A stretch of DNA of 64,000 nucleotides from Candidatus Hermodarchaeota archaeon. GTDB lineage: Archaea > Asgardarchaeota > Lokiarchaeia > Sigyniarchaeales > SOKP01. Made by a program: the position numbers and the translations under genes. Location: NCBI GenBank assembly GCA_048885525.1, contig JBHLLP010000005.1, positions 7,982-71,981 on the forward strand, in the 5' to 3' direction. The notes beneath the pieces were generated by a model, which worked only from the letters and a program-made list of their open reading frames with translations, was not told the DNA's origin and made no database searches. Of the stretch, positions 6,806 through 59,616 are shown piece after piece (the first letter of the stretch is position 1; every line of letters begins with the position of its first letter).

Positions 6806-8743
6806 GTGAATTTTGAAATGAGTAAAACTAAGGAAATAGCAGTTCCTGATAAAGTAAAAGGTTTTACCCAAGTTCGACTTGACGTTGATCTAACAGATGG
6901 AAAAATTAGCAAAAGCGCATTATCTAATGAATTCTGTCGCGATTGGATTGGCGGTTACGGTTTCGGTGCAAAAATTCTTTGGGATGAATGTCCTGCTGGT
7001 GTAGACCCATTAAGCCCTGATAATGTTTTCGTTTATGCACAAGGGCCCTTTCCAGGAACAATCTTACCTACTTCTAGTAAATATGGAGTATTTGCTAAGT
7101 CCCCCTTAACAGGAATGTTTGGGATGGCAATCTCTTCTGGATCTGTTGCTGCTCAAGCTAGACGTGCTGGAATTAATACGATTGTGGTTAAAGGTAAAGC
7201 ATCAGAACCTGTTTATATGGTTGTTGATGATGATGATTATTATTTAGTACAATGTAAAGATACATTATGGGGGAAAGGATGCTGGGAAACAGAAGAAATT
7301 CTGAGAGATGAATTTCAGGATCATCGTCTTGGAATACTGACTATTGGTCCAGGAGGAGAACGCGGAGGTCATATGGGATGTATTACTAATGATCGCAATA
7401 GACAAGCTGGAAGAACTGGAATGGGTGCAATTATGGGCTCAAAGAATCTTAAAGCGATATGTTTTAGAGGAACCAAAGGGATTAGTGTTGCTCGTCCTGT
7501 TGAATTCTTTAAATTAGCAAAAAAGTTAATAAAAGTAGCAAATGGACCTGCTACTGCTAAATATCGTGATTTAGGCACACCTGCCGGTATAACCAGTTAT
7601 AACAAGCTTGGAATGATGCCCACTTTTAATCATCGTGAAGGCACATGGGACAAAGTTGACGATGGAACCTTTACAGGTGATACACTTAATCAAGATTGGG
7701 TTGTAAAGAAAGTTGCGTGTTCTCAATGTTCTATAGCTTGTGATCACATAACGAAGATACCAAAAGATCATCCACATTGGCCTAATCTCTATTCAAGTAT
7801 CGATCAAGAATTATGTTATAGTTTTGGATCTGCATGTGGAAACTATGATTGGCCAACTGTATTCAAATGTGTGTCATTAACTGATGATTTAGGTGTTGAT
7901 GCAATAAGTGCGGGAGTAACAGCCGCAATGGCATGTGAATGCTATGAAGAAGGGATTATAACAAAAGATGATTTAGGTTATGAATTACCTTTTGGATCTA
8001 CAGTTAATCTCGTAAGATTCACAGAAGAGATGATTCTTGGTAAGGGATTTGCAGGTAAGATTTTTGGAGATGGAACACGTGAAGCGGGAAAACGTTTAGA
8101 AGAAATGGGTAGAAAAAATGCAAGCTACTATGGTATGCATATTAAAGGCTTGGAAATACCCGCTTTTGATGTTCATGGTATGAATAGTTTTGCAGTTGGA
8201 ATGAGTGTATCTATTCGCGGTGCATGTCATCTAAGGAATGGTTCTTATGGACTTGATGCTAAAGGTAATTTTGACCGGTTCGGTTATGACAAACCTGTTG
8301 AAAGAGGTAAAGCAATTAAAGATTTAGAGGATATCTATGCCATTATTGATTCTTATATAGTGTGTAAATTTACTCGAGGTATTTATGAAAATGACGCTGA
8401 AATGGCTAAAGTATTTGAATTAGTTACAGGAATCCCCGTAACTGATAAATTTATAGCACATAGAGGAGACGCAATTGTTACACTTTCGAAGTGCTTTAAT
8501 ATTCGAGAAGGATGGACTAGAGACGATGATAAACCTCCCGAGCGATTCTTCAAGCAACCACATACAAAGGGACCAGCTAAGGGAGTTACTTTAAAGGAAG
8601 ATGGCTATCAGAAACTTTTGAGTGGTTATTATGAAGCTCGAGGCTGGGACACTAAGACAGGGATTCCAACTGATGCAACTTTGAAATCTCTTGGATTAGA
8701 TTTTGTAATTGGTAAATTAAATGTCGCGGGAGGGAAGAAATAA
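6806..8743 (+). CDS. aor: Aldehyde:ferredoxin oxidoreductase family (tungstopterin enzyme)
   Basis: Typical AOR N-terminus (VRLDVDLTDGKI...DWIGGYGFGAKILWDE), about 640 aa, AOR-like sequence throughout. Start is GTG at 6806 or ATG at 6818. Confidence 0.9.
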   Translation: MNFEMSKTKEIAVPDKVKGFTQVRLDVDLTDGKISKSALSNEFCRDWIGGYGFGAKILWDECPAGVDPLSPDNVFVYAQGPFPGTILPTSSKYGVFAKSPLTGMFGMAISSGSVAAQARRAGINTIVVKGKASEPVYMVVDDDDYYLVQCKDTLWGKGCWETEEILRDEFQDHRLGILTIGPGGERGGHMGCITNDRNRQAGRTGMGAIMGSKNLKAICFRGTKGISVARPVEFFKLAKKLIKVANGPATAKYRDLGTPAGITSYNKLGMMPTFNHREGTWDKVDDGTFTGDTLNQDWVVKKVACSQCSIACDHITKIPKDHPHWPNLYSSIDQELCYSFGSACGNYDWPTVFKCVSLTDDLGVDAISAGVTAAMACECYEEGIITKDDLGYELPFGSTVNLVRFTEEMILGKGFAGKIFGDGTREAGKRLEEMGRKNASYYGMHIKGLEIPAFDVHGMNSFAVGMSVSIRGACHLRNGSYGLDAKGNFDRFGYDKPVERGKAIKDLEDIYAIIDSYIVCKFTRGIYENDAEMAKVFELVTGIPVTDKFIAHRGDAIVTLSKCFNIREGWTRDDDKPPERFFKQPHTKGPAKGVTLKEDGYQKLLSGYYEARGWDTKTGIPTDATLKSLGLDFVIGKLNVAGGKK

Positions 8744-45959: not shown

Positions 45960-48167
45960 TTAAAGATTTAGTTTTTGTTTCCAGATTTTCATTGAAAGTC
46001 TCAATTCCTCTCTTTCAGGATGGCTTAACACCTCTGATTTATCTTTAAGCTCTGTACCAGTACTATGAATAGTTTTTAATATACTATTATATCCCTCTGT
46101 CTTAACAAATTCATTTTGAAATCTTTCTAATGCTGCTGAAATTTCTTTTCCAGTCATTTTTTCTAGATTATTTAAAATATCATGGAACTGTTTTGATAAG
46201 AAAGTATCTTTTGGGATTTCGGCTACTTCTGTCTCTACCATTTTAGGTTCTTCCAATGGGGGTGTAATTACAGGTTTAGTAATGATGGGTTCTTCTTTTA
46301 GAGGTTCTTCTAATTTGGGTTGTGTTTCTAATGAAATTGGCTTTTTAATTGTACGCAAAATTTCCTTACGTGCTCCAACCCAAGCATCTTCAAGGATAGG
46401 TACAAATATTTTAATATGTTCTTCAATTATACTCCCAATACCTGCGATTTCAGTTAGATATTCTCCTCTAAATTCTGTTTTTGAAAGAACACATAGTATT
46501 ACTTCTTCATAATCTTTGTTAATTCCCCAAAGATTTTGTAGTGCTCGATTTCGATAATCTACGTTATCCATATTATCCATCTCTCGCATAATAGCCTCAT
46601 GTTCTGGGATAGTTGGATCTATATAAGTTGCAATTCTAAAGTTTATGCGTGAAGGTCGGGCTTTAATTGTCTCAATGTCAATGTCAGAAAGATTGGGTGC
46701 TACAATCAAGACTCTCATTTTAGCATTTAATATTTCTTCATTTATATGAGCTCTAGCCGCTTCTGGAGACCTAATAAACCATATATCCTTCATTGTAAAG
46801 CCACGTTGGCTTTTGGCTTGATCCCAAAATTCTCGAGTAGTAACTTCACTAACTTCCAATCTTTTTAAAATATCTGATAATGTATTATCTAGAGTGTCAA
46901 CAATACCCTTTCCAAAGATATCTTTTATATTACCAAATGATTCAAAAATACCTCCAGAAAGACCATCAATTCGTTGTTCCGCTAACTTTACAGCTTTATT
47001 AAAATTTTCAGAAATATCAGCAAATATTCTTTCTTTATCTTCTCCAGATTTGGAAGTAATTGATTCAATATTCTTTGCGGCATCTTCAAGTGAATCCTTA
47101 AGTTTTGAAATAATTTCTGTGTTAATTCCTTGTGTTGCTTTTTTCAATTCATCAGCAAATACAGTCTGACTGACGCTTAATTGCACGTTTAAATTGTCAG
47201 TAATATCTTTTAAACGTGTAGCAATAACTTTATCGATTACATCACTAACTGCTTGTTGAATTACCCCTAAGCGTAATTTTTGTAAATTTTCAGTAATAGT
47301 TGTTTTGATATCACCAAATTGATCTCGTAGATCATCAACTTGATTTTTAATAATCTGGGATGTTCTTACATTAAGATTTTCAAATTGCTTTGATAAAGAA
47401 CTAATTTGATCATCAGACAAAGACTTTGTTAAATCTCCGAGATGAGATATATCATCTGTAATTGTTCTAATTTGATCGATTGCTGAAATCGTCTGATCGA
47501 ATTCTTTCTTTTGAGCATGGATTTGAGAAAGCATTTTTTCTTTTAAATCTGACATTACTACACTAGAATCTTTCATTTTTTCCATATCCTTTGCCTCAGT
47601 TTCAAGTTGAGAAAATGATTTATCTAATTGCTTAGGGATAGTAGATTTTATATCATATATATAAGCATAAAATTTCTTCAATTGTGCGATTAAAGCAGCA
47701 TAAGGCGGTAAAGCCTGATAATGAGGAGTTGCACCGATAATCTCTTTAAATAATCCTTTTTCTACAAATTTATCAGCAATTTCTTTACATTTTTCTTTTG
47801 GTTTGCCAATTAGAATTGACATTTCCCCAATAGATATTGCTTCTCGACCTGTGGTTCGAAAATATAGATCTATTTCTTCATCCGATAGATCAATCTCACT
47901 TAATACTTGCTTTGTTAATTCTTTGGAATATGCAACATCTTTTTCTTTTTCTATAACATCTTTTATTTCAAAATTCTCTACTTCTAAATGTTGATTGATA
48001 AAAATTATTAATTTATGAGCAGGGTCGCCGTGAACATTTTCTTTTTTAATTGGAAACTTTTTAATTTCTTTATACTCATCTACAGAAATTGGAAATTTAA
48101 TATCTTTTAAACAAATCTTACATTTAATAGGGACTTCAACAATATCTTTATCTTTAAATAGATACAT
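45960..48167 (-). CDS. TrmB-architecture protein with an expanded coiled-coil insert of about 300 aa, an extra N-terminal domain and a P/E-rich C-terminal extension
   Basis: TrmB-like wHTH: LSDEEIDLYFRTTGREAISIGEMSILIGKPKEKCKEIADKFVEKGLFKEIIGATPHYQALPP. Long heptad region. TrmB_C/PLD-like segment: IWFIRSPEAARAHINEEILNAKMRVLIVAPNLSDIDIE. Then PKLEEPLKEEPIITKPVITPPLEEP. Confidence 0.55.
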   Translation of the reverse strand: MYLFKDKDIVEVPIKCKICLKDIKFPISVDEYKEIKKFPIKKENVHGDPAHKLIIFINQHLEVENFEIKDVIEKEKDVAYSKELTKQVLSEIDLSDEEIDLYFRTTGREAISIGEMSILIGKPKEKCKEIADKFVEKGLFKEIIGATPHYQALPPYAALIAQLKKFYAYIYDIKSTIPKQLDKSFSQLETEAKDMEKMKDSSVVMSDLKEKMLSQIHAQKKEFDQTISAIDQIRTITDDISHLGDLTKSLSDDQISSLSKQFENLNVRTSQIIKNQVDDLRDQFGDIKTTITENLQKLRLGVIQQAVSDVIDKVIATRLKDITDNLNVQLSVSQTVFADELKKATQGINTEIISKLKDSLEDAAKNIESITSKSGEDKERIFADISENFNKAVKLAEQRIDGLSGGIFESFGNIKDIFGKGIVDTLDNTLSDILKRLEVSEVTTREFWDQAKSQRGFTMKDIWFIRSPEAARAHINEEILNAKMRVLIVAPNLSDIDIETIKARPSRINFRIATYIDPTIPEHEAIMREMDNMDNVDYRNRALQNLWGINKDYEEVILCVLSKTEFRGEYLTEIAGIGSIIEEHIKIFVPILEDAWVGARKEILRTIKKPISLETQPKLEEPLKEEPIITKPVITPPLEEPKMVETEVAEIPKDTFLSKQFHDILNNLEKMTGKEISAALERFQNEFVKTEGYNSILKTIHSTGTELKDKSEVLSHPEREELRLSMKIWKQKLNL

Positions 48168-48200: not shown

Positions 48201-49454
48201 TTAAAATATTACTTTCTCTGGATATGTAATTTCTAATAAGCTAAGAGCTTTTCTAGCGATTTCATAAGTAATTGCACCATCAGTATCTTGATCTTTATAA
48301 GCTGCTCTTATTTTAGGGAGAAGATATTCTGGAAATATAATCAATGGTTTAATATCAGTTAATAGACATATCCATTTTCTGTCAGTCTCATCTGTAACTT
48401 CTGTAATTATATTTAATTTCTTTAGATCTTCTAATAAAATCTCAGTTACAGCGAACTCGGAAAAAATTTTTGGAATTTTATCCATTGGATAATGATTATG
48501 TCTCATTAAGACAAAAAAATCATAAACATCAGGATTGAGAAGAATTGATGCCAATTTTTTCGTATCTTCAATTGGTTGAGTATAAGGATCGTAATTTGAA
48601 AAGAAATCAACAACTTTTTGTCTATATAAAGGTAATAATTCATTTTTAGTCTCTTTAAAGTGGTTTAATAAGTTTTCATTTGGAACACGAGCAAACATTA
48701 AATCTTTAACTAGAAATAGATATTCTCCTTGATGGGTTAGTGTACCTGTTTTTTTGTCTTTTTCACCTTTTATCCAATCCCGACGTATAATATTTAACTC
48801 TAAAAAAGGTTGTAAGAGGATATCTACATTTACATTAGATGACATCTTTTCTAATATTGCCTTCATTTCCTTCTTTGAGATTGGTCTTTCTCTCAAAAGT
48901 TCTAAAATTTTCAAACGTTCATTACTATTATAGATCAAAGCGACTTTCTGAAGTTTATCTAAGTTTGATAAACGGTCCACTTGAAAAATAGTAAACTTTA
49001 ATTCATTTTTTAACCTGATATTAATATTCTCGATAAGAGAAAGTTGTTTCGAATTCCTTGCTCTTGTTAATTTATCAAAAATGACATCTAATCTTTTTCC
49101 CATTTCTTTAATTAGAGCTTCAAAAATGTCAATTTCATCATCTAATTCGAATACTGAGATGGCCAAATACTGCGTTCCATCAGCGACTTGTTTAAAATAA
49201 GATAATATCTGATAAGGAGTGTCTTTTGATCTTCCCTCATAAAAATTACTATAACTATACTTGACTCCAAAAAGTCCTGTAGTGTGCTGATAAAAAATCG
49301 CAAAAATATCATTTTGAGAAATTAATTCTGAAAAATGATCCTCATCATACTCATCTTCCCGGAAGATTAATTGAATTGGTTCAAACTCTGGTTCTATTTC
49401 ACCACTTTCTTTTTGATTAATCTTGAACTGAAATGTTAAAATACCTTGGATCAA
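48201..49454 (-). CDS. Hypothetical protein: N-terminal alpha/beta domain, central ArsR-like wHTH, C-terminal domain; co-oriented with 45960..48167
   Basis: NERLKILELLRERPISKKEMKAILEK. No family recognised. There is a 33-nt gap to the downstream gene. Confidence 0.5.
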   Translation of the reverse strand: MIQGILTFQFKINQKESGEIEPEFEPIQLIFREDEYDEDHFSELISQNDIFAIFYQHTTGLFGVKYSYSNFYEGRSKDTPYQILSYFKQVADGTQYLAISVFELDDEIDIFEALIKEMGKRLDVIFDKLTRARNSKQLSLIENINIRLKNELKFTIFQVDRLSNLDKLQKVALIYNSNERLKILELLRERPISKKEMKAILEKMSSNVNVDILLQPFLELNIIRRDWIKGEKDKKTGTLTHQGEYLFLVKDLMFARVPNENLLNHFKETKNELLPLYRQKVVDFFSNYDPYTQPIEDTKKLASILLNPDVYDFFVLMRHNHYPMDKIPKIFSEFAVTEILLEDLKKLNIITEVTDETDRKWICLLTDIKPLIIFPEYLLPKIRAAYKDQDTDGAITYEIARKALSLLEITYPEKVIF

Positions 49455-49754: not shown

Positions 49755-52700
49755 ATGATTTTGAGAAATGGGAAAAAGAAGAGCTTTCTAATTTTTAGTT
49801 TTATTTTTTTAATTTCATTCTCATCTATTTTTATATTTTCTATAAATCAAAATACTAGTTCAATCTTAAACAAGAAATTTGGAGGATCTGAAAAGAATAA
49901 TCTAAAAAATCCTAAATTAGCAGCTCAAGAAACGCTTACGGCTGTATGGTTTGAAAACCCTACTTTTGAAGATCCAATAGGCCCAACTTGGTATCATTTA
50001 TATGGAGAATTAGGAGATAATTCAGATATAAAAGCAACTTCAGGTTCAGATCAAGCAAACTTTATAATAATAGGGGATAGCTATGAGGAACAGATCCTCC
50101 TTGATGATACAACTTACACAAATTGGGAAGCGTTCAATAAAACAGAGCTAGTTGTCGTTCCTCAACGCTCATCTGTTCCCTATTATGGGATTGATAGTGA
50201 TGGAGCTTGGTGCAGTCATCGTTGGGATGAAGGAGAGACTGGAGGGCAACCCAAAAATACTCCTGTTATGCATTGGAGAACAAATGTTAGTCTAAATGTC
50301 GACATGTCTGATTATATTATTACATCGGTAGATTTTAACGCAATAATTAATGGTAGCGTAGATATATATATTGATACGCCTGGTGATACACTGGCTAGAG
50401 CAGGAGTTTCCATCAATCAATATGAAACTTATGATTATGCTCAATTTTATGTTGAAATTACCACTTTAGATATTAATGAGCTAAATACTTACAGGATTGC
50501 CTTTAATCAAACAATCTGGTTAGGAAATGAAGCCCGTTTATTATATGATATAGAAGGATTAATAGGAGCTTATGAAGAACAAGCAATAATTAATGCGTTA
50601 AATAATGTCTTAGCAGTGGATCCAGGTCATAATAATTTCACAATTGTTTTGGGAATATATTTGTATTGTGAAGACAATAATTCGGGCACTGATCTCGACG
50701 ATTGGACTGAATTACGATTCAAATTTCTGAATTTGACGTTTTCTTATGAAAAAAAAATAGATCAATTTACTTCTGCCTCATGGAATCAGGATGGAGATAA
50801 AGTAAGTGATATTAGTAATGATACAATTATAATAAATGAAGCAAAACTTAATTTTAACTATAAAACGGATAGTAATTGGACTGATGCTTCTCCTAATTCT
50901 GAAATCAGAATTTTTATTAATAACAATAAACTCACAGAAACAATTAAACTAAGTACAGCTACCACAAGTTTTCAAATCGCTAAAATAGGTGGTTATGATG
51001 TCACTTCATTAATTCCATATAATGTTTTTATCAATTTTTCAATTCAAGTTTATTTAGCAGATGAATTTTCATTAAGTAAAAATATCACTTTTTCAATAGA
51101 TAATCTTTATCTCAATATTACATATACTGTACTATTTCCTGATTATCAGACAAATTTACAAATATTTTTCAACGGTGTGAACAAGACTTCTCTTCCATTT
51201 TATGATCATCCTGTAGGTAATGATTTAAATATAACTGTAAAGTATCCTGATGATACAGGTACTCATATTCCAGGAGCTGTAGTACAGTTATCTGGAAATC
51301 TCACAGGAACTTTACAAGAAGATCCATCGTATGAACAATATACTATTATTATAGACGCAAATGATTTTAATGCAGGTACTTACGATTTAAAAATTGTCGC
51401 GCATAAGGTAAATTATAAGCTAAGTACCATCAGCCGTGTTTTAACTGTAAGTCCAACTAGTTCGCAAGATCTTCAATTATTCTTAAATGGTGAAAATAAG
51501 ACTTTAGACCCTTCATTTGAAATTTCACTCGATAAATTATTAAATATCACAATAAAATACAATACTTTCTTAGGAACACCGGTAACAGGAGCTTCAGTAA
51601 CTTTATCTGGAGAAGGAATTTTAGAAAATCTGAATGAAAGCGTGAGTTTAAATCAATATTCTACAATCATAAATACTACATTAAATCTTAAATATGGGAC
51701 TAATCTCTTAGAAATTGAAGCAAAAAAATTAAATCATGAAACAAAATTTGAATATCCAAGGATAAATATAAGGAAAATTAATGCAATGATTACTCCTGTA
51801 AATAATACTAATACAATAAGTACTAAACCAGGAGGAGACGCTACAATACAAGTATATATAAATAACACAGATTTTAATGAAATAGTCAAAGGAGCATATG
51901 TTACTTATTCTTGGGATTTTGATGATGGCATTCTTTATGATCTTGATAATGATGGGATATATGAGGTGAATATAACAGATGTTCCTGCAGGAACTCATTC
52001 AATAAATATTAATGCTTTTGGAAGTGATAAATACAATTTTATCAGTCTTGAAATCATAATAGCTGCTGTAAAACCTATAGATTCATCGTTTCTCTTTCGA
52101 GCTTTATTAATAGCAGCAATTATTGTTTCCATTGGATTAACGAGTTATCTTTATGCATATCAAACATATCTAAAATATCCTAAACAAGTTAGAAAAATCC
52201 GAAAATATCGAAAAACTCTAAGAAAAGCAAAAGATCCACATATTCCTATTATAAAACGTAAAAAAGCATTTAATCGTTCATATCAAGAAGAATTGGATAA
52301 AACGTCAATAAATTTAAAAAGTAAACCAAAAGGAGAAAAAGAACTGCAGGAAAGGATGGTTAAAGAATCTCCAGAAAATTCTGGAGTCGAATTACCTAAT
52401 GGAACTATAAAACAAAGCACAAATTCTCATTTTACAAATAAAGATAAAACCAATAGAAAAAATAAAAATAGGACTCATCGAAAGTGGTTTAAGTTTAGTT
52501 TGAAAAAAAAGTGGGGAGGATCTCTTAATATTAAAAACAACAGAAAATTTCTTTATTTAATTTTTATTTTAGCAAGCTTAATTCTGTACTCCTTGATAAT
52601 CTGTCCATTTATTAGTCAAAATTCCACTATATTCTCCAATGATTCAGTTAACAATGTATTTAATGAAAATGTTGGCAAACTTGGAATTTCAGCTCAAGAG

Positions 52701-55250
52701 TCTTTTACAAAACAATGGCTTGATAATTATAACCTTACAACTCCAATAGAACCAACTTGGTTCCCTTCATATGGAGAATTAGGAGACAGTTCAGATGTAA
52801 AGGCAACTTCAGGTTCAGATCAAGCAAATTTTATAATAATAGGGGATACCTATGAGGAACAGGTCCTCCTTGATGATACAACTTTTTCGAACTGGGAAGC
52901 CTTCAATAAGTCTGAACTGGTCGTCGTTCCTCAACGCTCATCTGTCCCCTATTATGGAATTGATAGTGATGGAGCTTGGTGTAGTCATCGTTGGTGGGAA
53001 GGAGAGTCAGGGGGTCAACCTAAAAATACTCCTGTTATGCATTGGAGAACAAATGTGAGTCTATCAGTCGACATGTCTGATTATGTTATCACATCTGTAG
53101 ACTTCAATGCGATAATAAATGCTAGTGTAGATATGTATATTGATACTCCTGGTGATACTCTAGCTAGAGCAGGAGTTTCCATCAATCAATATGAGACTTA
53201 TGATTATGCCCGATTTTATGTTGAAATTACCACATTAGATGTTGATGAGTTAAATACTTACAGGATTGCCTTTAATCAAACACGATTATTAGGAAACGAA
53301 TTTCTTTCATTATATGATATAGAAGGATTTATAGGAGCTTATGAAGAAAAGGCGATAATTGATGCGTTAACTAATGTTTTAGCAGTAGATCCAGGTCATA
53401 ATAATTTCACCATTGTTTTAGGAATCTATTTATACTGTGAAGATAATAATTCTGGCACTGATCTTGACGATTGGACCGAATTACGTTTTAAATTTCTGAA
53501 TTTGACGTTTTCTTATGAAAAAAAAATAGATCAATTTACTTCCGTTTCATGGAATCAAGATGGAGATAAAATAAGTGATATTAGTAATTATACAGTGGTA
53601 GTTGATCAAGCATTCCTTAATTTCAAATATAAAATCAATGATACTTGGCCTAGCACATCACCAAATTCCGAAATTAGGGTTTTAATTAATGATAACTTAC
53701 ATCCTGAAACAGTAAAATTAACAACCGCTAATGCATCATTCCAATTAGCAAAAACAGGAGGTTTTGATGTAACTCCTCTAATTATAGAAGATGTGAACCT
53801 TTCAATTCAAGTATATGTTGCTGATGAATTTAGTTTAGATAGGAATATTGAAATTTCAATAGATGATGTTACACTAAATATATCTTATACAATAATACTT
53901 CCTGACGAGAAAACTGATCTGCATTTATTTTTAGATAATGTAAATAAAACTGACGATCCTGAGATTGATATATTTATTGGTGATTCTCTAAATGTTACGG
54001 TAAAATATCTTAATTCAACTGGAGAGCATATAACTAATGCTACAGTTCAACTATTAGGAAGTTTTGCTGGAGAATTAGAGGAAGATGATGGATTGGGACA
54101 ATATACTCGAATTATAAATACAGATATATCTGATGCTGGTACACATTTTTTAACAATTATTGCACGAGCAGAAGATCATGAAACACGGGAAATAATTTTT
54201 AGAGTAGATATTAATAAATTTGAGAGTGATAATTTACAAGTTCTATTAAATAATCAAAATCGCACTCAAGATCCTTATATTCAATTAACTGTAAGTCAGA
54301 TCTTAAATATAACTATTAAGTATACCAATCTTATAGGAACCCATATTTCAGGAGCAAATGTGCTACTCACATCTGAAACGTACTCTTCATATTTAAATGA
54401 AAGTATTAGTTTTGAACATTATTCAATAATTATTAATACAACTGAAAGATTAAAAATTGGAGCAAATTATTTAACAATTGAAGCACAAGCACCAACATTT
54501 CAAACCCAATTCCTAGATATAACAATCTCTATTAGAAAGATTAATCTTGATATTATAACTATAACTGGTTCAAATTCTATAGAGGCTAAAAAAGGAGACA
54601 ATATCAGGTTACAGGTAAGATTAAATAATACAGATTTTGGTGGATTTGTAAAGGGGGCATTTTTAACATATACATGGCAAGAGGGAGATGGCATTCTTAC
54701 TGATGATAACAATGATGGGATTTATGAAGCTACGATCTCAAATTTTCCAGAGGGTACATATTCAATAGAATTATTCGCATTTGTGGGTGATGATTATAAT
54801 ATTGATATGTATCAAATTTTTGTATCAGCAACGAGTGAAGAGGAGGAGGAAAATATTATTTTTCCAATACTGTTTTCAATTTTTCTTGTATTAATATCTG
54901 GTTTAGCAATTTATCTTTATGCCTATCAAACATATTTAAAATATCCTAAACAAGTTAGAAAAGTTCGAAAATATAGAAAATCCCTAAATCGTAAGGAAGC
55001 TCCTAAAGTACAAATTATAGGCAGAGAGACTGCCTTCAAATCATACTATAACGAAAATTTAGGAAAGGATACTAGCAATTTAAAATTGAAACGCCATCCA
55101 GGAATAACAAAATCAATGGAACAAAAAATAAGTGTTGATAAAGCACCTGATAAATCTCTAGAAAAAAAAATGGACCAAGATCAATTAACTAGAAAAGTTA
55201 TTGAAAAGAAGGAAGAATTGGATGAATTAATTAAAGATTCTTCAAAATAA
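49755..55250 (+). CDS. Giant 4-TM surface protein made of two in-frame tandem paralogous modules. Each module is: signal anchor, conserved domain of about 330 aa, Ig-like repeats, TM helix, basic tail.
   Basis: Uninterrupted 1831-codon ORF. Hydrophobic segments lie at aa ~10-30, ~780-800, ~932-953 and ~1702-1725. There are many NxS/T sequons. Internal repeat offset is 2769 nt. Confidence 0.8.
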   Translation: MILRNGKKKSFLIFSFIFLISFSSIFIFSINQNTSSILNKKFGGSEKNNLKNPKLAAQETLTAVWFENPTFEDPIGPTWYHLYGELGDNSDIKATSGSDQANFIIIGDSYEEQILLDDTTYTNWEAFNKTELVVVPQRSSVPYYGIDSDGAWCSHRWDEGETGGQPKNTPVMHWRTNVSLNVDMSDYIITSVDFNAIINGSVDIYIDTPGDTLARAGVSINQYETYDYAQFYVEITTLDINELNTYRIAFNQTIWLGNEARLLYDIEGLIGAYEEQAIINALNNVLAVDPGHNNFTIVLGIYLYCEDNNSGTDLDDWTELRFKFLNLTFSYEKKIDQFTSASWNQDGDKVSDISNDTIIINEAKLNFNYKTDSNWTDASPNSEIRIFINNNKLTETIKLSTATTSFQIAKIGGYDVTSLIPYNVFINFSIQVYLADEFSLSKNITFSIDNLYLNITYTVLFPDYQTNLQIFFNGVNKTSLPFYDHPVGNDLNITVKYPDDTGTHIPGAVVQLSGNLTGTLQEDPSYEQYTIIIDANDFNAGTYDLKIVAHKVNYKLSTISRVLTVSPTSSQDLQLFLNGENKTLDPSFEISLDKLLNITIKYNTFLGTPVTGASVTLSGEGILENLNESVSLNQYSTIINTTLNLKYGTNLLEIEAKKLNHETKFEYPRINIRKINAMITPVNNTNTISTKPGGDATIQVYINNTDFNEIVKGAYVTYSWDFDDGILYDLDNDGIYEVNITDVPAGTHSININAFGSDKYNFISLEIIIAAVKPIDSSFLFRALLIAAIIVSIGLTSYLYAYQTYLKYPKQVRKIRKYRKTLRKAKDPHIPIIKRKKAFNRSYQEELDKTSINLKSKPKGEKELQERMVKESPENSGVELPNGTIKQSTNSHFTNKDKTNRKNKNRTHRKWFKFSLKKKWGGSLNIKNNRKFLYLIFILASLILYSLIICPFISQNSTIFSNDSVNNVFNENVGKLGISAQESFTKQWLDNYNLTTPIEPTWFPSYGELGDSSDVKATSGSDQANFIIIGDTYEEQVLLDDTTFSNWEAFNKSELVVVPQRSSVPYYGIDSDGAWCSHRWWEGESGGQPKNTPVMHWRTNVSLSVDMSDYVITSVDFNAIINASVDMYIDTPGDTLARAGVSINQYETYDYARFYVEITTLDVDELNTYRIAFNQTRLLGNEFLSLYDIEGFIGAYEEKAIIDALTNVLAVDPGHNNFTIVLGIYLYCEDNNSGTDLDDWTELRFKFLNLTFSYEKKIDQFTSVSWNQDGDKISDISNYTVVVDQAFLNFKYKINDTWPSTSPNSEIRVLINDNLHPETVKLTTANASFQLAKTGGFDVTPLIIEDVNLSIQVYVADEFSLDRNIEISIDDVTLNISYTIILPDEKTDLHLFLDNVNKTDDPEIDIFIGDSLNVTVKYLNSTGEHITNATVQLLGSFAGELEEDDGLGQYTRIINTDISDAGTHFLTIIARAEDHETREIIFRVDINKFESDNLQVLLNNQNRTQDPYIQLTVSQILNITIKYTNLIGTHISGANVLLTSETYSSYLNESISFEHYSIIINTTERLKIGANYLTIEAQAPTFQTQFLDITISIRKINLDIITITGSNSIEAKKGDNIRLQVRLNNTDFGGFVKGAFLTYTWQEGDGILTDDNNDGIYEATISNFPEGTYSIELFAFVGDDYNIDMYQIFVSATSEEEEENIIFPILFSIFLVLISGLAIYLYAYQTYLKYPKQVRKVRKYRKSLNRKEAPKVQIIGRETAFKSYYNENLGKDTSNLKLKRHPGITKSMEQKISVDKAPDKSLEKKMDQDQLTRKVIEKKEELDELIKDSSK
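49921..52328 (+). repeat. Tandem duplication unit 1 within the giant ORF
   Basis: Aligns codon-for-codon with 52690..55094. Very high identity over about the first 800 nt (GELGD.SD.KATSGSDQANFIIIGD...NLTFSYEKKIDQFTS) and again at the TM/tail. The Ig-like middle is much more diverged. Confidence 0.9.
52690..55094 (+). repeat. Tandem duplication unit 2 within the giant ORF
   Basis: See unit 1. The offset is 2769 nt at the N-terminal domain and 2766 nt at the tail. Confidence 0.9.
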
Positions 55251-55557: not shown

Positions 55558-58500
55558 TTGATTAAAAATAGAAGAATTAGACAAAGGTCAAGATCTATAG
55601 GATTATTATCTATTCTATTATGCATTTTTGTTAGTTTTGTTTTATTAAATTCTGATAGAGAACATATTTTATCTATGGAAAATAATGAGAACAATTTAGA
55701 GAATGTAATTCAAAATAATTTATTAAAAACTTCAAGCCTTTCTTTGAATAATATTTTTAGTGGAATTGGAGAACCGTGGAATGCAACCCATTATGCAAAT
55801 CGAACCGATTATAATTTACCAGTTAATTTTGGAAATGGTACATACGATACAGCAGAAATTCCATTAGGAATTGATTGGATTGGGTATCAATTAAATGCAT
55901 CAATAGACAATCTTTATGATACTAGAAATTGGAATAATGGTACGTTCGATTTTGGAGATGATGATGGAACGTATGCTGCGGCTGAGGATGATACAAGTGA
56001 TATAATAAATCCATATCAAAATTGGACCTTTAATTTACTAGACGGTGCTACAAATAATGATATGAGTGGAAATTATTTAGATAGCGGATATGGTCCATCT
56101 GATGGGCATAACTGTTTAGAATTAAGAATGGATGGAAACCCTAACGTATTAGTTGGATACCGAAACTATAATGAAAATGATAGATGTTGGTGGAATAGTA
56201 CGTTTGTTATCCCAAGGGGAACCATAATAAGCAGTACTTTAGAATTTGATGTTAATCCAAATTATTTAGCAAATTTTAACTCATGGGATTTTGGGATTTT
56301 AATTAATAGTCAACAAATTTATAGTATTGGTACTTATTCACTTAAACAGCTTGGTGAGGGATCTTGGCATAGTTTTAGTATTCCAAGTTCTGTTTGGATC
56401 AATCAGTCTAACGTTTTCAATTCACCAGTTAATGGGACTAGTATATCTATCGAATTTAGTTTAGAATATGTAGCAACATCCGCGAGTTATTCAAATGGAT
56501 TTACAAATATAGAATATCAACAAATATTTGTAGACAATATTAAATTAGTAAGTAAAGCAGAAGTAAAACCTAGTCAACTTCTATTGAAAATAAATAATAC
56601 CGATGTAAATGATGTAGATTGGGGAAAAGGCTACTTAGAACTAAAGGGTAATTGGCAATCTTCAAAAGTTTATGCTAATTTTAGCAGCGATGATACATGG
56701 AGTCTTAGTAATTTTGATATAGAATTAGACACAGATTTGAGTTTATATGCTCTTAAAAATATTCCTGAGACTAGCTATGAAACGAATATTTTTTCAGAAG
56801 GCGTAAAGTTTTCAGTTGAAAACAATAGTTTAGTTAGTTGGGAGAGTTATAGTTATTTTGCCGTTCCTACCGGGTATGAAGAGAGTACTATGAGGCTTGA
56901 ATTTCCAACAGATATAGATATAAAATGGGTATCTGAACCACAACAACCAAGTGTTAATAGACTAACTCAATGTGATAATTCTACAACGGGATTATTATTA
57001 ATTCCAGTAAACTCAATATCAACCACTCCTGATGGTTTCTGGAGATTTGAAGGTAAATCGCCTAATTATTGTGAAGAGTTGCAGATTTTTAAAAATACAA
57101 CCAGTATACCTACTGGAAATGATTGGATTCAGGAAACTGAATTTTTTAGTGGAGATTATATTAATATAACTACAAAAATAACAGATTCTTCTTTAGTTTC
57201 AAGTTATATTCAACAAACTAAAGCAAAACTGCAGATTAGATTTCCAAATGGTTCAATTTGGACAGAAGTATATCAATTACAATCTCCAGACTCGAATGGT
57301 AATGTAGATTTCAATTATTTTCAAATACCAAAAACACCACCAAATTATGAAGTTGGAGAATATGAAGCAATAATTACTTGGAATAACTCTTATTCAATAT
57401 TCGGATTAAATGAAACAGGTATTATAACAAAAAAGTTTACTGTAAAGCATTTCTCAACACTTACACCTGATCAGAGCTATTACGCTAATATTCTTGAGGG
57501 CGATACAATCAATCTTTTAGCATCTTTTACTGATAAAGAGAATGGAGATGCAATTGAGGATGCTTTAGTCTATATCGATAACTTCTTGGGAGGTAGAGAA
57601 TATTTTAATGAAATTAGTCCCGGATTTTATGTTTTATTAGACTTTAATACATCAGGAGGAGTTGCTGGTGATAACATACTTACTATATATGCAAATTCAT
57701 CTTTATATCAAAATAATACAAACCAGATAACTATAAATCTAGTACTCAAGACAACACTTACAGCTCAAGAATTTCCATATTTGCAAGTTTCGTGGAATGA
57801 AAATTTTACGATTCACTTGAATTACACGGAAACTACAACTGGAAATGGGATAATCACGTCTCCGACAAGTAATTGGCTAGGAGAATATTCTATAAATATG
57901 ACTTCACCAGGAATCTACAATATGGAGTTTAATAGTTCCTTATATGAAGTAAATAAAATCCATTCACTAATAATCAATGTAAACGAAGCTAACTATGAAT
58001 CTCAGAATGTTCTAATTAAAATCGAAATAATCGAAAGAGAAACATATATTGATAATGTTTTTCTTAATGGCATTGAAAAAGTAACAGATAAGAGTATAAC
58101 TCTTACTTCTGGACAACTTTTAAACATAACAATTAGTTATAAAGATCAAATTTCTGGTGATTTTCTAAGTGGGGCAACTGTTAGAGTTGTTGGTGGAGGA
58201 CTTTCTGAGTTTTTAAACGAGAGTTTAATTTATCCACAATATGAACTAGTATTTAATACATCACTTTTGGATGTTGGGGCCACATTTCTCACGGTCTCTG
58301 CGCAATTACAAAATTACAGCTCGTCAGCTATAGTATTGACACTTTATCTTGATGTTAGGGGAACTTCGATGGTTGTTTTATTAAATGGAGCTATATATCC
58401 AAATAATTATATAACTGTTGAAGTTACGGAAAAAATTAATATAACAGTCATCTATACCGATTTCATAAGTGGGTCTTATTTATATAACGCTACAATAGAA

Positions 58501-59616
58501 TTATTAGGATATGGATTTTTTGATGAAAATCCTTCCTTAGAACAATATAATTACACTATAGATGCAGGTATTTTGGGTCAAGGAATTGATATTTTGAATA
58601 TTATTGCAACTAAGAGTAATTATCAATCTCAACCAGCTCAAGTAACTGTAGAGATTACTGAAAAAAATACAAACCTTCAATTATTTTTTAATGGTGATAA
58701 TAAAACTGCAGATCCATTTTTAGAATTACCCATCGGATCATCATTAAATATTACTGTGAAATATTCAGATTTACTTGGTAATTTTATTGACAGTGCTGAT
58801 GTAATACTTCTTGGTGAAGGTTTATCTGACTCTTTAAATCAAAGTATCAGTTTTGAACAATATTCAATTTTATTAGATACACGTCAATTGGATATAGGAG
58901 TAAGATTATTAACAATAGTAGCACAAAGAAATAATTACCAACTAAAGAAAATTAATATTAGATTAGATATATTACGCATTAGAACTAATATTACAACCTT
59001 ATCGGGTATTAATGTGATTAATATCATTGCTGGTCAATCTGTTGATTTGAAAATCAAACTAAATGATTTAGATTTTGGAGGTTTAATTTTGAATGCAACT
59101 GTATCTTATCGATGGCAAAATGGACAAGGAATTTTAACAGATAATGATAATGATGGTATATATGAAGCAACTATTCCCAATATACCAAAAGGCTCGTTTA
59201 TTATTACAATAACCGCATTTGCAGGAGATGATTATGATTTTGAGAGGTTTGAGATTTTTATAACTGCAATAACCGAACCTGGAGAGGATTCACTTTTGTG
59301 GTTAGGATTATTTATTGGCGTTTCAATAGCAGCTGGAATTTTGATATCCTATCTTGTAGTCTATACACGTATTTTGAGATTTCCTAAACCTGTCAGAAGA
59401 GTACGAAAATTCAGAAAAAGTTTGAAGCGCAAAACTGTACCTAGTATAAGTGTAACTGGTCGTCAAAAAGCTTTTGATTCCCTTTATAGTGAGGAATTAG
59501 CTAAAACATCTGGTATAATAAAATTTAAGCCACTAGTAAGTAAAAAGAAATCGATACAAGAAAAAGAAGCTCAAATACCAGTATCAATTAAAGAAAAACC
59601 TGAAACTTTAGACTAA
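55558..59616 (+). CDS. Giant type-II-anchored surface protein with at least 6 Ig-like repeats, C-terminal TM helix and the same conserved basic tail (TTG start)
   Basis: N-terminal anchor IGLLSILLCIFVSFVLL. Repeats carry LNIT[VI].Y and DNDGIYEATIPN motifs shared with 49755..55250. C-terminal LLWLGLFIGVSIAAGILISYLVVY is followed by RILRFPKPVRRVRKFRKSL. Confidence 0.8.
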   Translation: MIKNRRIRQRSRSIGLLSILLCIFVSFVLLNSDREHILSMENNENNLENVIQNNLLKTSSLSLNNIFSGIGEPWNATHYANRTDYNLPVNFGNGTYDTAEIPLGIDWIGYQLNASIDNLYDTRNWNNGTFDFGDDDGTYAAAEDDTSDIINPYQNWTFNLLDGATNNDMSGNYLDSGYGPSDGHNCLELRMDGNPNVLVGYRNYNENDRCWWNSTFVIPRGTIISSTLEFDVNPNYLANFNSWDFGILINSQQIYSIGTYSLKQLGEGSWHSFSIPSSVWINQSNVFNSPVNGTSISIEFSLEYVATSASYSNGFTNIEYQQIFVDNIKLVSKAEVKPSQLLLKINNTDVNDVDWGKGYLELKGNWQSSKVYANFSSDDTWSLSNFDIELDTDLSLYALKNIPETSYETNIFSEGVKFSVENNSLVSWESYSYFAVPTGYEESTMRLEFPTDIDIKWVSEPQQPSVNRLTQCDNSTTGLLLIPVNSISTTPDGFWRFEGKSPNYCEELQIFKNTTSIPTGNDWIQETEFFSGDYINITTKITDSSLVSSYIQQTKAKLQIRFPNGSIWTEVYQLQSPDSNGNVDFNYFQIPKTPPNYEVGEYEAIITWNNSYSIFGLNETGIITKKFTVKHFSTLTPDQSYYANILEGDTINLLASFTDKENGDAIEDALVYIDNFLGGREYFNEISPGFYVLLDFNTSGGVAGDNILTIYANSSLYQNNTNQITINLVLKTTLTAQEFPYLQVSWNENFTIHLNYTETTTGNGIITSPTSNWLGEYSINMTSPGIYNMEFNSSLYEVNKIHSLIINVNEANYESQNVLIKIEIIERETYIDNVFLNGIEKVTDKSITLTSGQLLNITISYKDQISGDFLSGATVRVVGGGLSEFLNESLIYPQYELVFNTSLLDVGATFLTVSAQLQNYSSSAIVLTLYLDVRGTSMVVLLNGAIYPNNYITVEVTEKINITVIYTDFISGSYLYNATIELLGYGFFDENPSLEQYNYTIDAGILGQGIDILNIIATKSNYQSQPAQVTVEITEKNTNLQLFFNGDNKTADPFLELPIGSSLNITVKYSDLLGNFIDSADVILLGEGLSDSLNQSISFEQYSILLDTRQLDIGVRLLTIVAQRNNYQLKKINIRLDILRIRTNITTLSGINVINIIAGQSVDLKIKLNDLDFGGLILNATVSYRWQNGQGILTDNDNDGIYEATIPNIPKGSFIITITAFAGDDYDFERFEIFITAITEPGEDSLLWLGLFIGVSIAAGILISYLVVYTRILRFPKPVRRVRKFRKSLKRKTVPSISVTGRQKAFDSLYSEELAKTSGIIKFKPLVSKKKSIQEKEAQIPVSIKEKPETLD

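What the first reader, a model, noticed from the sequence alone, without database searches (positions are those of the whole stretch)
49755..55250. In-frame tandem duplication creates a two-ectodomain, four-TM giant surface protein
The 1831-codon ORF consists of two copies of a module of about 920 codons, with an offset of 2769 nt. Each copy has a signal-anchor helix and a conserved N-domain of about 330 aa. By eye, roughly nine in ten nucleotides of that N-domain are identical between copies (not computed). Three Ig-like repeats of about 95 aa, a TM helix and a basic tail complete each copy. The predicted topology is self-consistent: in, TM1, ectodomain 1, TM2, cytoplasmic linker, TM3, ectodomain 2, TM4, cytoplasmic tail. 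Conservation is mosaic. The N-domain and TM/tail are nearly identical, while the Ig-like stalk is strongly diverged. This fits gene conversion or purifying selection on the ends and diversification of the stalk. I do not recognise the N-domain (…GAWCSHRW.EGE.GGQPKNTPVMHWRTNVSL…DTPGDTLARAGVSINQYETYDY…).
Basis: seen in the sequence. Interest (0 to 1): 0.65.

Follow-up and report, generated by a model that had tools for sequence, protein, structure and literature searches.

The report
Fused two-headed Asgard surface protein
Two neighbouring, anciently duplicated genes for an uncharacterised Asgard-archaeal cell-surface protein are joined into one real, conserved 1831-codon gene that should display two head-on-stalk units on the cell surface. 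The two heads are kept alike by DNA copying between the halves.

Summary
ORF 49755-55250 (+) has 1831 codons and consists of two collinear modules. Each module has a hydrophobic leader, a jelly-roll head D1, a beta-sandwich D2, three Ig-like domains, a TM helix and a basic tail.

The junction is not an artefact. Contigs from five public runs cover it with no difference. Eight lineages, the window included, carry the same fusion. Their 75-codon linkers hold 0 stops in 450 in-frame codons, against 107 in 900 off-frame codons.

It is not a recent internal duplication. Each module has its own orthologues, at 65-81% identity in the stalk. In some relatives the modules are separate adjacent genes, with TAA where the window has CAA 52413 and ATG where it has TTG 52500.

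The near-identical heads (729/819 nt) reflect gene conversion. The sister genome has the same tract at 100% identity over 759 nt. Orthologues elsewhere carry heads only 34-42% identical.

Charge and N-glycosylation sequon distributions fit an in-out-in-out-in topology.

The family is known only from Asgard genomes and unlabelled metagenomes: 304 clusters, with no Pfam or NCBIfam model. About a tenth of its best-matching clusters are such double fusions.

Function is inferred as a surface binding protein. Whether the precursor is cleaved is unknown.

The parts
49755..55250 (+). Fused ORF, 1831 codons plus stop
   Evidence: The start matches orthologues (MILRNFKKK...).
49782..49847 (+). Leader / TM1 (aa 10-31), preceded by a +4 N-terminus. 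It is a start-transfer signal; cleavage is unknown.
49920..50759 (+). Head D1 of module 1 (aa 56-335), a large jelly-roll-like beta-sandwich
   Evidence: AlphaFold2 pLDDT 91.6. Only weak fold matches.
50001..50819 (+). Gene-conversion tract, copy 1. It pairs with 52770-53588.
   Evidence: 729/819 nt identical. dS 0.46 against about 1.0-1.5 in the other long segments. The sister genome has the same tract at 100% over 759 nt.
50769..51140 (+). Domain D2 of module 1 (aa 339-462), a beta-sandwich with the family motif FTSxSWNQ
51141..52067 (+). Stalk of module 1: three Ig-like beta-sandwich domains
   Evidence: Weak PKD hit at aa 703-755.
52086..52157 (+). TM2 (aa 778-801), stop-transfer anchor of module 1
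52146..52220 (+). Conserved juxtamembrane motif YLYAYQTYLKYPKQVRKIRKYRKTL
   Evidence: Nearly invariant in the family alignment
52158..52550 (+). Cytoplasmic basic linker (aa 802-932, net charge +28), disordered after aa 855
   Evidence: No in-frame stops in six fused lineages.
52413..52415 (+). CAA (Q887), at the position where the two-gene relatives L002/L003 have the stop TAA
52500..52502 (+). TTG (L916), at the position of the ATG start of the module-2 gene in two-gene relatives. It is a possible internal start.
52551..52616 (+). TM3 (aa 933-954), internal leader / start-transfer signal of module 2
52689..53528 (+). Head D1 of module 2 (aa 979-1258)
52770..53588 (+). Gene-conversion tract, copy 2 (probable donor)
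   Evidence: Module-2-type relative P0012 carries the same head type: 88% identical to head 2 and 86% to head 1
53538..53903 (+). Domain D2 of module 2
53904..54830 (+). Stalk of module 2: three Ig-like domains
54852..54923 (+). TM4 (aa 1700-1723)
54924..55247 (+). Cytoplasmic tail of module 2 (net +13), starting with the conserved basic motif
55558..59616 (+). Downstream paralogue (1352 aa). It has the same stalk type, TM and basic motif, but an unrelated N-terminal region.

Best explanation
The ORF is a genuine, evolutionarily maintained fusion of two old tandem paralogues. They belong to a family of membrane-anchored surface glycoproteins known only from Asgard (Promethearchaeia/Lokiarchaeia-type) genomes and unlabelled metagenomes.

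Shown here: the DNA is continuous. The fusion is shared by relatives down to about 62-68% identity over the distal stalk, TM and tail. The linker is kept open in frame. Each module has separate orthologues.

Inferred: the ribosome makes one 1831-aa precursor. Its four hydrophobic segments act alternately as start-transfer (TM1, TM3) and stop-transfer (TM2, TM4) signals. This puts both acidic, sequon-rich ectodomains outside. The 131-aa basic linker and the C-tail stay in the cytoplasm.

Shown here: the two D1 heads are similar because of gene conversion over an ~820-nt tract, not because the duplication is young. D1 also behaves as an exchangeable cassette among paralogues.

Inferred, weakly: the lectin/CBM-like beta-sandwich head on an Ig-like stalk serves as a binding (adhesion or recognition) module on a cell that has no ordered S-layer.
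For: Continuity. Logan contigs of four samples (7-22x) plus a 151-nt record from a second study cover 52420-52570 with 0 mismatches and 0 gaps. One 1846-nt unitig runs from stalk 1 into head 2.

Conservation of the fusion. Complete fused ORFs exist in L010 (1828 aa, 79% identical, same synteny) and L007 (1821 aa). The junctions of L005, L006, L008 and L009 are also fused. At the stop-homologous codon the fused forms have CAA, CAG or CTG, where L002/L003 have TAA. At the start-homologous codon they have ATA, TTA or TTG, where the split forms have ATG. Linkers hold 0 stops in 450 in-frame codons against 107 in 900 off-frame codons, and length differences are multiples of three.

Old paralogy. 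Stalk, D2 and tail of module 1 hit module-1 orthologues best. Those of module 2 hit module-2 orthologues best.

Gene conversion. Head dS is 0.46 and dN 0.05, against dS of about 1.0-1.5 in the other long segments. The window heads are each other's best match, at 90%. The sister L010 has heads 100% identical over 759 nt at the same offset of 2769. Orthologues have heads only 34-42% identical while their D2 and stalk are 64-79% identical. Short paralogues have heads 78-80% identical but D2 only about 50%.

Topology. Charge pattern and sequon enrichment: 23 and 24 sequons observed against 12.2 and 10.3 expected, reached in 0/1000 shuffles.

Fold. Confident beta-sandwich models.
Against: There is no transcript or protein evidence: no RNA run holds the locus. 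TTG 52500, conserved in the sister genome, could allow separate initiation of module 2. Cleavage of the leaders could not be predicted with the tools at hand. The h-regions are long (21-22 aa), which is more typical of anchors. However, an uncleaved TM1 or TM3 would tether the head within about 24 residues of the membrane. Fold matches for the head are weak (TM-score at most 0.27), so the binding function is only a lead. Relatives do well with two separate genes, so covalent linkage is not essential. The 100%-identical tract in L010 comes from a short-read MAG, and assembly could have exaggerated it.
Confidence: 0.8

Rival explanations
1. Artefact: there are really two genes, and a missed stop codon, a homopolymer frameshift (A8 run at 52503-52510) or a chimeric assembly across the repeated heads created the long ORF.
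For: The junction is A-rich with homopolymers. Two-gene versions of the locus exist. Two related contigs, L006 and L008, do carry frameshifts elsewhere in the gene.
Against: The junction sequence is identical in contigs from five runs of two studies, at 7-22x in four of them. Seven other lineages are fused with sense codons at the stop position. Frames +1 and +2 are closed throughout.
Confidence: 0.02
2. One reading: a recent in-frame internal tandem duplication of one gene. The ends are kept similar, and the stalk is diverging rapidly under diversifying selection.
For: There are two collinear modules at a constant offset, and similarity is mosaic.
Against: Each module's D2, stalk and tail are closer (64-81%) to a different set of orthologues than to the other module (35-50%). 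dS is saturated outside the head. The same two modules occur as separate genes in relatives.
Confidence: 0.04
3. The locus is functionally two proteins through internal initiation. Module 2 is mainly translated on its own from TTG 52500, the codon homologous to the ATG of split relatives. The read-through fusion is a minor or tolerated by-product.
For: TTG is a legitimate start codon in table 11. It sits exactly at the homologous start position and is conserved in sister L010. The downstream paralogue's longest ORF also begins with TTG.
Against: Five other fused lineages have ATA or TTA there, so they have no standard start, yet they keep module 2 intact. There is no stop for module 1, so the full-length product must be made anyway. 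No clear Shine-Dalgarno motif lies upstream of 52500; the GGAGG-like run at 52512-52519 lies downstream.
Confidence: 0.15
4. A neutral or decaying fusion: a stop codon was lost recently and module 2 or the linker is on its way to becoming a pseudogene.
For: L006 and L008 have frameshifts in stalk 1.
Against: The fusion spans lineages down to about 62% identity, with zero in-frame stops in the linkers. Head dN/dS is about 0.11. Module 2 is full-length and conserved.
Confidence: 0.03

Closest known systems
Unidentified 'complex surface proteins / unordered surface densities' on Ca. Lokiarchaeum ossiferum cells (PMC9834061; bioRxiv 10.64898/2026.02.13.705702)
   Same: A single membrane without an ordered S-layer, decorated by protruding proteins. 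The family described here occurs in Lokiarchaeia-type genomes and is predicted to be membrane-anchored, elongated (head plus 4 beta-sandwich domains) and glycosylated.
   Different: No link between this family and those densities has been shown. The window comes from an uncultured sediment organism. No hit among the top matches was labelled as coming from a cultured strain.
Viral envelope glycoprotein polyproteins with alternating internal signal and stop-transfer sequences, such as the bunyavirus Gn-Gc precursor and flavivirus prM-E (own knowledge)
   Same: One reading frame carries two ectodomains. Each follows a hydrophobic start-transfer segment and ends in a TM anchor, with a basic cytoplasmic loop between them.
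   Different: No sequence or fold relationship was found (one search gave only generic beta-sandwich hits). Signal-peptidase cleavage is not shown here. This is a cellular chromosomal gene flanked by housekeeping genes.
Tetrabrachion of Staphylothermus marinus, whose heavy and light chains come from one gene product cleaved after synthesis (review PMC5744192, citing Peters et al. 1996)
   Same: An archaeal surface protein made as a single precursor that holds what become two subunits.
   Different: Tetrabrachion is a coiled-coil S-layer protein cleaved at a defined Glu-Gly site. It has no internal TM pair, and there is no homology.
C-terminally anchored archaeal surface (S-layer-type) glycoproteins with Ig-like domains (general knowledge; review PMC5744192)
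   Same: An N-terminal leader, a sequon-rich beta-sandwich ectodomain and a C-terminal TM anchor.
   Different: There is no evidence of lattice formation. The cytoplasmic tail is long (at least 108 aa) and conserved, rather than a short end or a PGF-CTERM signal. There are two ectodomains per chain. No S-layer Pfam domain was found.
Concerted evolution and cassette exchange in surface-protein gene families, such as pilin or variable surface antigen systems (own knowledge)
   Same: A discrete ligand-exposed domain is homogenised or replaced by recombination at conserved flanks, while the scaffold evolves vertically.
   Different: There is no evidence here of silent cassettes, programmed switching or a dedicated recombinase. 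The exchange is seen only on evolutionary time scales.
Carbohydrate-binding / lectin-like beta-sandwich modules (BcsB CBD 9fmt, PNGase N-domains 7zgn, CBM 2c26, BDI_1231 4h3w)
   Same: The head model is a pair of beta-sandwich/jelly-roll domains. These are its best PDB matches.
   Different: E-values are only about 1e-5, TM-scores at most 0.27 and identity 5-12%. No binding-site residues could be compared.

Membership tests
Unnamed Asgard 'leader / D1 head / D2 / Ig-stalk / TM / basic-motif' family (304 clusters at 50% identity) | N-terminal basic n-region plus hydrophobic leader, followed by the W-x-x-N pre-head motif | tested here: met
   Present in both modules (aa 1-68 and 916-991). W65 and N68 are nearly invariant.
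Unnamed Asgard 'leader / D1 head / D2 / Ig-stalk / TM / basic-motif' family (304 clusters at 50% identity) | D1 + D2 region with the invariant core (LG...F..G...D, S-W-x-Q) | tested here: met
   phmmer of aa 56-462 gave 304 representatives at E<=1e-3 and 224 at E<=1e-30. Invariant columns are listed.
Unnamed Asgard 'leader / D1 head / D2 / Ig-stalk / TM / basic-motif' family (304 clusters at 50% identity) | C-terminal TM helix followed by K-Y-P-K-x-V-R-K-V-R-K-Y-R-K | tested here: met
   Present twice, at aa 807 and 1729. Y798, Y802, K807, P809, V812, R813, K814, R816 and K817 are nearly invariant.
Unnamed Asgard 'leader / D1 head / D2 / Ig-stalk / TM / basic-motif' family (304 clusters at 50% identity) | Restriction to Asgard archaea | tested here: inconclusive
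   Every hit with an organism label is Loki-, Prometh-, Thor-, Odin- or Hodarchaeota; two are labelled only 'marine sediment metagenome'. Most hits are unlabelled metagenome proteins.
PKD domain (PF00801) | Score above the Pfam gathering threshold | tested here: not met
   21.5 bits against a cut-off of 23.5, at aa 703-755. The fold is Ig/PKD-like in the model.
Polyprotein-type surface glycoprotein precursor (alternating topogenic signals plus signal-peptidase cleavage) | Alternating start- and stop-transfer hydrophobic segments, with positive-inside loops | tested here: met
   Four segments. Net charges are +4, -50, +28, -69 and +13. Sequons are enriched only in the ectodomains.
Polyprotein-type surface glycoprotein precursor (alternating topogenic signals plus signal-peptidase cleavage) | Proteolytic cleavage after the internal signal sequence | not testable with these tools
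   No signal-peptide predictor or proteomic data were available. By eye (own reading, not computed), a (L/I)-x-A|Q-E motif lies 24-26 residues after the h-region in most of the sequences looked at.
Archaeal S-layer protein | Forms a two-dimensional lattice, or carries known S-layer domains | not testable with these tools
   No S-layer Pfam or NCBIfam hit. Lattice formation needs experiments.
PGF-CTERM / archaeosortase substrate | PGF motif plus a TM helix at the extreme C-terminus | tested here: not met
   No NCBIfam or Pfam hit of that kind. TM2 and TM4 are followed by 131 and 108 residues.
Carbohydrate-binding module / lectin | Close structural match, including the binding site | tested here: inconclusive
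   The best Foldseek hits are of this class, but with TM-score at most 0.27.

The most novel reading that the evidence does not exclude
The fused gene encodes a cellular polyprotein. The internal leader (TM3) is cut by the archaeal Sec11-type signal peptidase, as in viral envelope polyproteins. This would release two type-I glycoproteins in strict 1:1 ratio, which pair on the surface. That would explain why lineages switch between one-gene and two-gene states at little apparent cost, and why the two heads are kept identical by conversion. The family would then supply the so far unidentified surface densities of Lokiarchaeia-type cells. It could be used as a recognition or adhesion layer towards partners, or as a target for viruses, with head-cassette exchange as the means of diversification.
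Probability: 0.3. Interest if true: 0.7.

Novelty: new variant of a known kind. Interest (0 to 1): 0.5.

Why it matters
Cultured Lokiarchaeia lack an ordered S-layer. They carry unidentified protruding surface proteins that have been proposed to mediate the cell-cell contacts discussed for eukaryogenesis (PMC9834061). This locus defines a sizeable family with a confident structural model, known so far only from Asgard genomes and not yet described. It shows that its members are recurrently fused into two-ectodomain, four-TM precursors. It also shows that the exposed head is shuffled and homogenised by recombination, as expected for a domain under selection for what it binds. That gives concrete candidates and testable predictions (topology, processing, pairing, ligand) for Asgard surface biology. 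The fusion itself is an ordinary evolutionary event, and the function remains inferred.

Tried and rejected
1. Pfam, NCBIfam and PDB sequence searches of the modules and of the two conserved upstream genes gave nothing above threshold.

2. Foldseek of the whole module matched only generic Ig/MG-domain arrays such as complement C3/C5 and was uninformative. Foldseek of the head against PDB and BFVD gave only weak beta-sandwich matches.

3. The bacterial promoter/terminator scan across the locus found no more sites than shuffled sequence. It is also not applicable to an archaeon.

4. No RNA-seq run holds the junction, so transcription could not be tested.

5. The genome-contig scan returned one locus only.

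6. The literature searches found no description of the family.

7. NJ bootstrap support for a single origin of the split forms was weak, at 46/100. With three different stop/start solutions, I do not claim a single fission event.

8. I inspected candidate signal-peptidase sites by eye only. There is no clean -3/-1 site close to either h-region, so I left cleavage open.
Full report
OBSERVATION

The window has about 30% G+C. It carries one ORF at 49755..55250 (+) of 1831 codons with a single terminal stop. At an offset of 2769 nt, 90-nt windows are 83-94% identical between about 50025 and 50830. A global alignment of residues 1-923 against 924-1831 is collinear, with only a few small gaps.

Identity along that alignment is as follows:
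- 85-97% aa for residues 81-360;
- 35-53% in most of the stalk;
- high again only in a 25-residue juxtamembrane motif;
- low in the TM helices and in the distal tails.

The exact figure for the high-identity tract, 50001-50819 against 52770-53588, is 729/819 nt and 246/273 aa. Kyte-Doolittle scanning finds four hydrophobic segments, refined to aa 10-31, 778-801, 933-954 and 1700-1723. The one exception is that the 'TM/tail' similarity is confined to the motif YLYAYQTYLKYPKQVRK[I/V]RKYRK[T/S]L.

IS THE JUNCTION REAL?

Only the ORF frame is open between 52140 and 52650; the other two frames are littered with stops.

Public runs were searched with 52100-52900. Four sediment-metagenome runs from one study hold all or nearly all of its sampled 31-mers. 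Their contigs cover 52013-52739, 51900-53051 (twice) and 52151-52744, with no substitution and no gap, at word depths of 7-22. An 1846-nt unitig runs from unique stalk-1 sequence through TM2, the linker and TM3 into head 2. A 151-nt record from a different study matches 52420-52570 exactly. This excludes a missed stop, a homopolymer frameshift or a chimeric join.

RELATIVES AND THE ONE-GENE-OR-TWO QUESTION

A search with module 1 found 613 proteins. Every hit with an organism label is an Asgard MAG (Loki-, Prometh-, Thor-, Odin- or Hodarchaeota); two are labelled only 'marine sediment metagenome'.

The syntenic locus was recovered from several genomes. Its order is 735-aa gene (-), 417-aa gene (-), surface-protein gene(s) (+), GNAT (-), enoyl-CoA hydratase (-).

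It is fused in these loci:
- L010, the sister genome, with a complete 1828-aa ORF 79% identical to the window protein;
- L007, a Promethearchaeia MAG, with a complete 1821-aa ORF;
- L005, L006, L008 and L009, where the junction is fused.

It is split into two genes in these loci:
- L002/L003/L004, with genes of 879 aa and 907/909 aa in the same frame. They are separated by a single TAA and 26 otherwise open codons, followed by ATG.
- L001, where a deletion gives an ATGA stop/start overlap at the same ATG.
- L011, with TAATAATAA, a 23-nt spacer, a different ATG and a shifted frame.

In the DNA alignment, the window's CAA 52413-52415 sits at the TAA position. The window's TTG 52500-52502 sits at the ATG position. 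The other fused lineages have CAA, CAG or CTG at the stop position and ATA, TTA or TTG at the start position.

Over 75 linker codons in six fused lineages there are 0 in-frame stops, against 33 and 74 in the two other frames. Distances between the flanking motifs differ only by multiples of three.

The fused state lies on both sides of the deepest split of the orthologue tree, where window plus L010 group in 100/100 bootstraps. The spacer of L002 still reads like the coding linker of the fused forms. I therefore infer that the fusion is ancestral to this orthologue group, and that fission happened at least once and probably more often. Monophyly of the split forms has only 46/100 support, and three different stop/start solutions exist.

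NOT A RECENT DUPLICATION, BUT GENE CONVERSION

Segment-wise BLAST was run against 120 relatives and the locus genes. The D2, stalk and tail of module 1 are closest to module-1 orthologues (P0001, P0005, P0007; stalk about 70%). Those of module 2 are closest to module-2 orthologues (P0004, the second gene of L002, P0012, P0061). The two window heads are each other's best hit at 90%.

Nei-Gojobori estimates between the modules are:
- head: dS 0.46, dN 0.05;
- D2: dS 0.99, dN 0.25;
- stalk: dS 1.47, dN 0.50.

In sister L010 the same tract, at the same 2769-nt offset, is 100% identical over 759 nt and 98.8% identical in protein. Identity drops sharply at about aa 74-85 and about aa 355.

Across orthologues whose D2 and stalk are 64-79% identical to the window's, the D1 head is only 34-42% identical. 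Short (about 600 aa) stalk-less paralogues show the reverse: heads 78-80% identical and D2 only about 50%.

D1 is thus an exchangeable cassette bounded by conserved flanks. Within the window lineage it has been copied between the two modules. The likely direction is from module 2 to module 1, because the module-2-type relative P0012 carries the same head type. One caveat applies: the perfect identity in L010 comes from a short-read MAG.

STRUCTURE AND TOPOLOGY

AlphaFold2 of module 1 used a 74-sequence alignment and gave mean pLDDT 79. It shows:
- a helix at 8-34;
- a disordered tether at 30-55;
- continuous beta structure from 56 to 771;
- a TM helix at 779-805;
- two short helices in the conserved basic region;
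- a disordered linker from 855.

The head alone (aa 56-462) gave pLDDT 91.6 and pTM 0.84. It consists of two beta-sandwich/jelly-roll domains, D1 at 56-335 and D2 at 339-462. Its best PDB matches are carbohydrate-binding or lectin-like sandwiches: BDI_1231, PNGase N-domains, the BcsB carbohydrate-binding domain, CBMs and legume lectins. These matches reach only E about 1e-5 and TM-score at most 0.27. BFVD gives equally weak phage tail or receptor-binding-type sandwiches. No Pfam or NCBIfam model covers the protein.

Net charges of the successive segments are +4 (N-terminus), -50 (ectodomain 1), +28 (linker), -69 (ectodomain 2) and +13 (tail). N-X-S/T sequons number 23 and 24 in the ectodomains, against 12.2 and 10.3 expected; no shuffle out of 1000 reached the observed values. 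The linker has 3 sequons (not significant) and the tail 0. This matches the positive-inside rule and an in-out-in-out-in arrangement.

HOW COMMON IS THE ARCHITECTURE?

An exhaustive phmmer search with aa 56-462 against 1.84 billion representative proteins found 304 clusters at E<=1e-3. At least 15 of the best 150 are double-head proteins with fused TM-linker-TM junctions. These come from several subfamilies, including ones with short, stalk-less modules. Fusion of tandem paralogues through a basic cytoplasmic linker is therefore a recurrent theme of the family, not a peculiarity of this window.

MECHANISM AND OPEN POINTS

The best-supported reading has four parts:
- one precursor is translated;
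- TM1 and TM3 start translocation, and TM2 and TM4 stop it;
- two glycosylated head-on-stalk ectodomains face outwards;
- the conserved basic motif and the linker face the cytoplasm.

Three things are not settled.

First, it is unknown whether the leaders are cleaved. Their h-regions are long, at 21-22 aa. However, an uncut leader would hold the head within about 24 residues of the membrane, although it sits on a stalk of several domains. By eye (my own reading, not computed), a (L/I)-x-A|Q-E motif precedes the first strand of D1 in most of the sequences looked at.

Second, it is unknown whether TTG 52500, conserved in the sister genome but replaced by ATA or TTA in five other fused lineages, also serves as an internal start.

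Third, the ligand of the head is unknown.

The one-gene and two-gene states interchange with little apparent cost. That would be most easily understood if the mature products were the same in both, that is, if the precursor is cut at the internal leader as in viral glycoprotein polyproteins (own knowledge). I give this 0.3. An archaeal precedent for a surface protein made as one precursor and cut into two chains is tetrabrachion (PMC5744192).

CONTEXT AND SIGNIFICANCE

The surrounding genes encode anaerobic metabolism: an Hdr-like oxidoreductase, aldehyde:ferredoxin oxidoreductase, ferredoxins, beta-oxidation enzymes and GH127. This is an ordinary chromosomal region.

Cultured Lokiarchaeia have a single membrane without an ordered S-layer, carrying unordered surface densities and complex surface proteins of unknown identity. 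These have been proposed to mediate cell-cell interactions (PMC9834061; bioRxiv 10.64898/2026.02.13.705702). This family is a plausible candidate for such structures, but no link has been shown.

VERDICT

The feature is real, conserved and now largely explained in evolutionary terms: a fusion of old tandem paralogues plus head-specific gene conversion and cassette exchange. It is a new variant of a known kind, namely a membrane-anchored surface glycoprotein with an Ig-like stalk, in a family that is not described in the libraries or papers searched. Interest is moderate, at 0.5.

Noticed in passing
window 55558-59616 (+): Immediately downstream lies a 1352-aa paralogue. It shares the stalk repeats, the TM helix and the basic FPKPVRRVRKFRK motif (39% identity over about 400 aa), but has an unrelated N-terminal region of about 800 aa. 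Relatives carry one to two other family genes at this position (1113 aa in L010; 545 + 549 aa in L002) or none (L006).
   Followed up: partly
window 45960-48167 (-) and 48201-49454 (-): Two divergently oriented genes (735 aa and 417 aa) have no Pfam or NCBIfam hit. They are syntenic with the surface-protein locus wherever the fetched contig reaches far enough upstream: L001, L003, L006, L010 and L011 have both, while L002, L004 and L007 hold the 417-aa gene and are cut at or before the second. Whether they are functionally linked or merely neighbours in closely related genomes is open.
   Followed up: partly
L006 about 7590-7630; L008 about 1440-1500: Two independent metagenome contigs of fused orthologues each carry a small deletion or frameshift within the same stretch of about 25 nt in stalk repeat 1. 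The window reads ...QLSGNLTGTLQED... there. The frameshift splits the gene call into 517 + 1304 aa in L006 and into a partial upstream call (about 515 aa) + 1286 aa in L008. This may be sequencing error, strain heterogeneity or real inactivation; it was not resolved.
   Followed up: no
P0124 (1581 aa) and P0130 (1836 aa): Some double-module family members carry a very long cytoplasmic C-terminal extension. It is made of tandem repeats of the type 'LLELDTSELLTEE(x)INxI...'. This suggests that the cytoplasmic side of the family can be elaborate.
   Followed up: no
window 51982-52063, 52679-52760, 53007-53088: Logan unitigs break at these places, and their word depth jumps from about 20 to 65-93 in at least run X1, and at 53007-53088 also in X2 and X3. 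These short segments therefore appear to be shared by several family members or strains in the same samples. They lie in stalk repeat 3, at the pre-head motif of module 2 and inside head 2.
   Followed up: no
L002 4831-4908: The 78-nt 'intergenic' spacer of the two-gene relative is in frame with both genes. Apart from the single TAA it is open, and its translation resembles the coding linker of the fused forms. This looks like a very recent nonsense mutation.
   Followed up: yes
window 52512-52519: A GGGGAGGA run, resembling a Shine-Dalgarno motif, lies just downstream of TTG 52500, inside the codons for W-G-G. No standard start codon follows at a suitable distance; ATT lies at 52530.
   Followed up: partly
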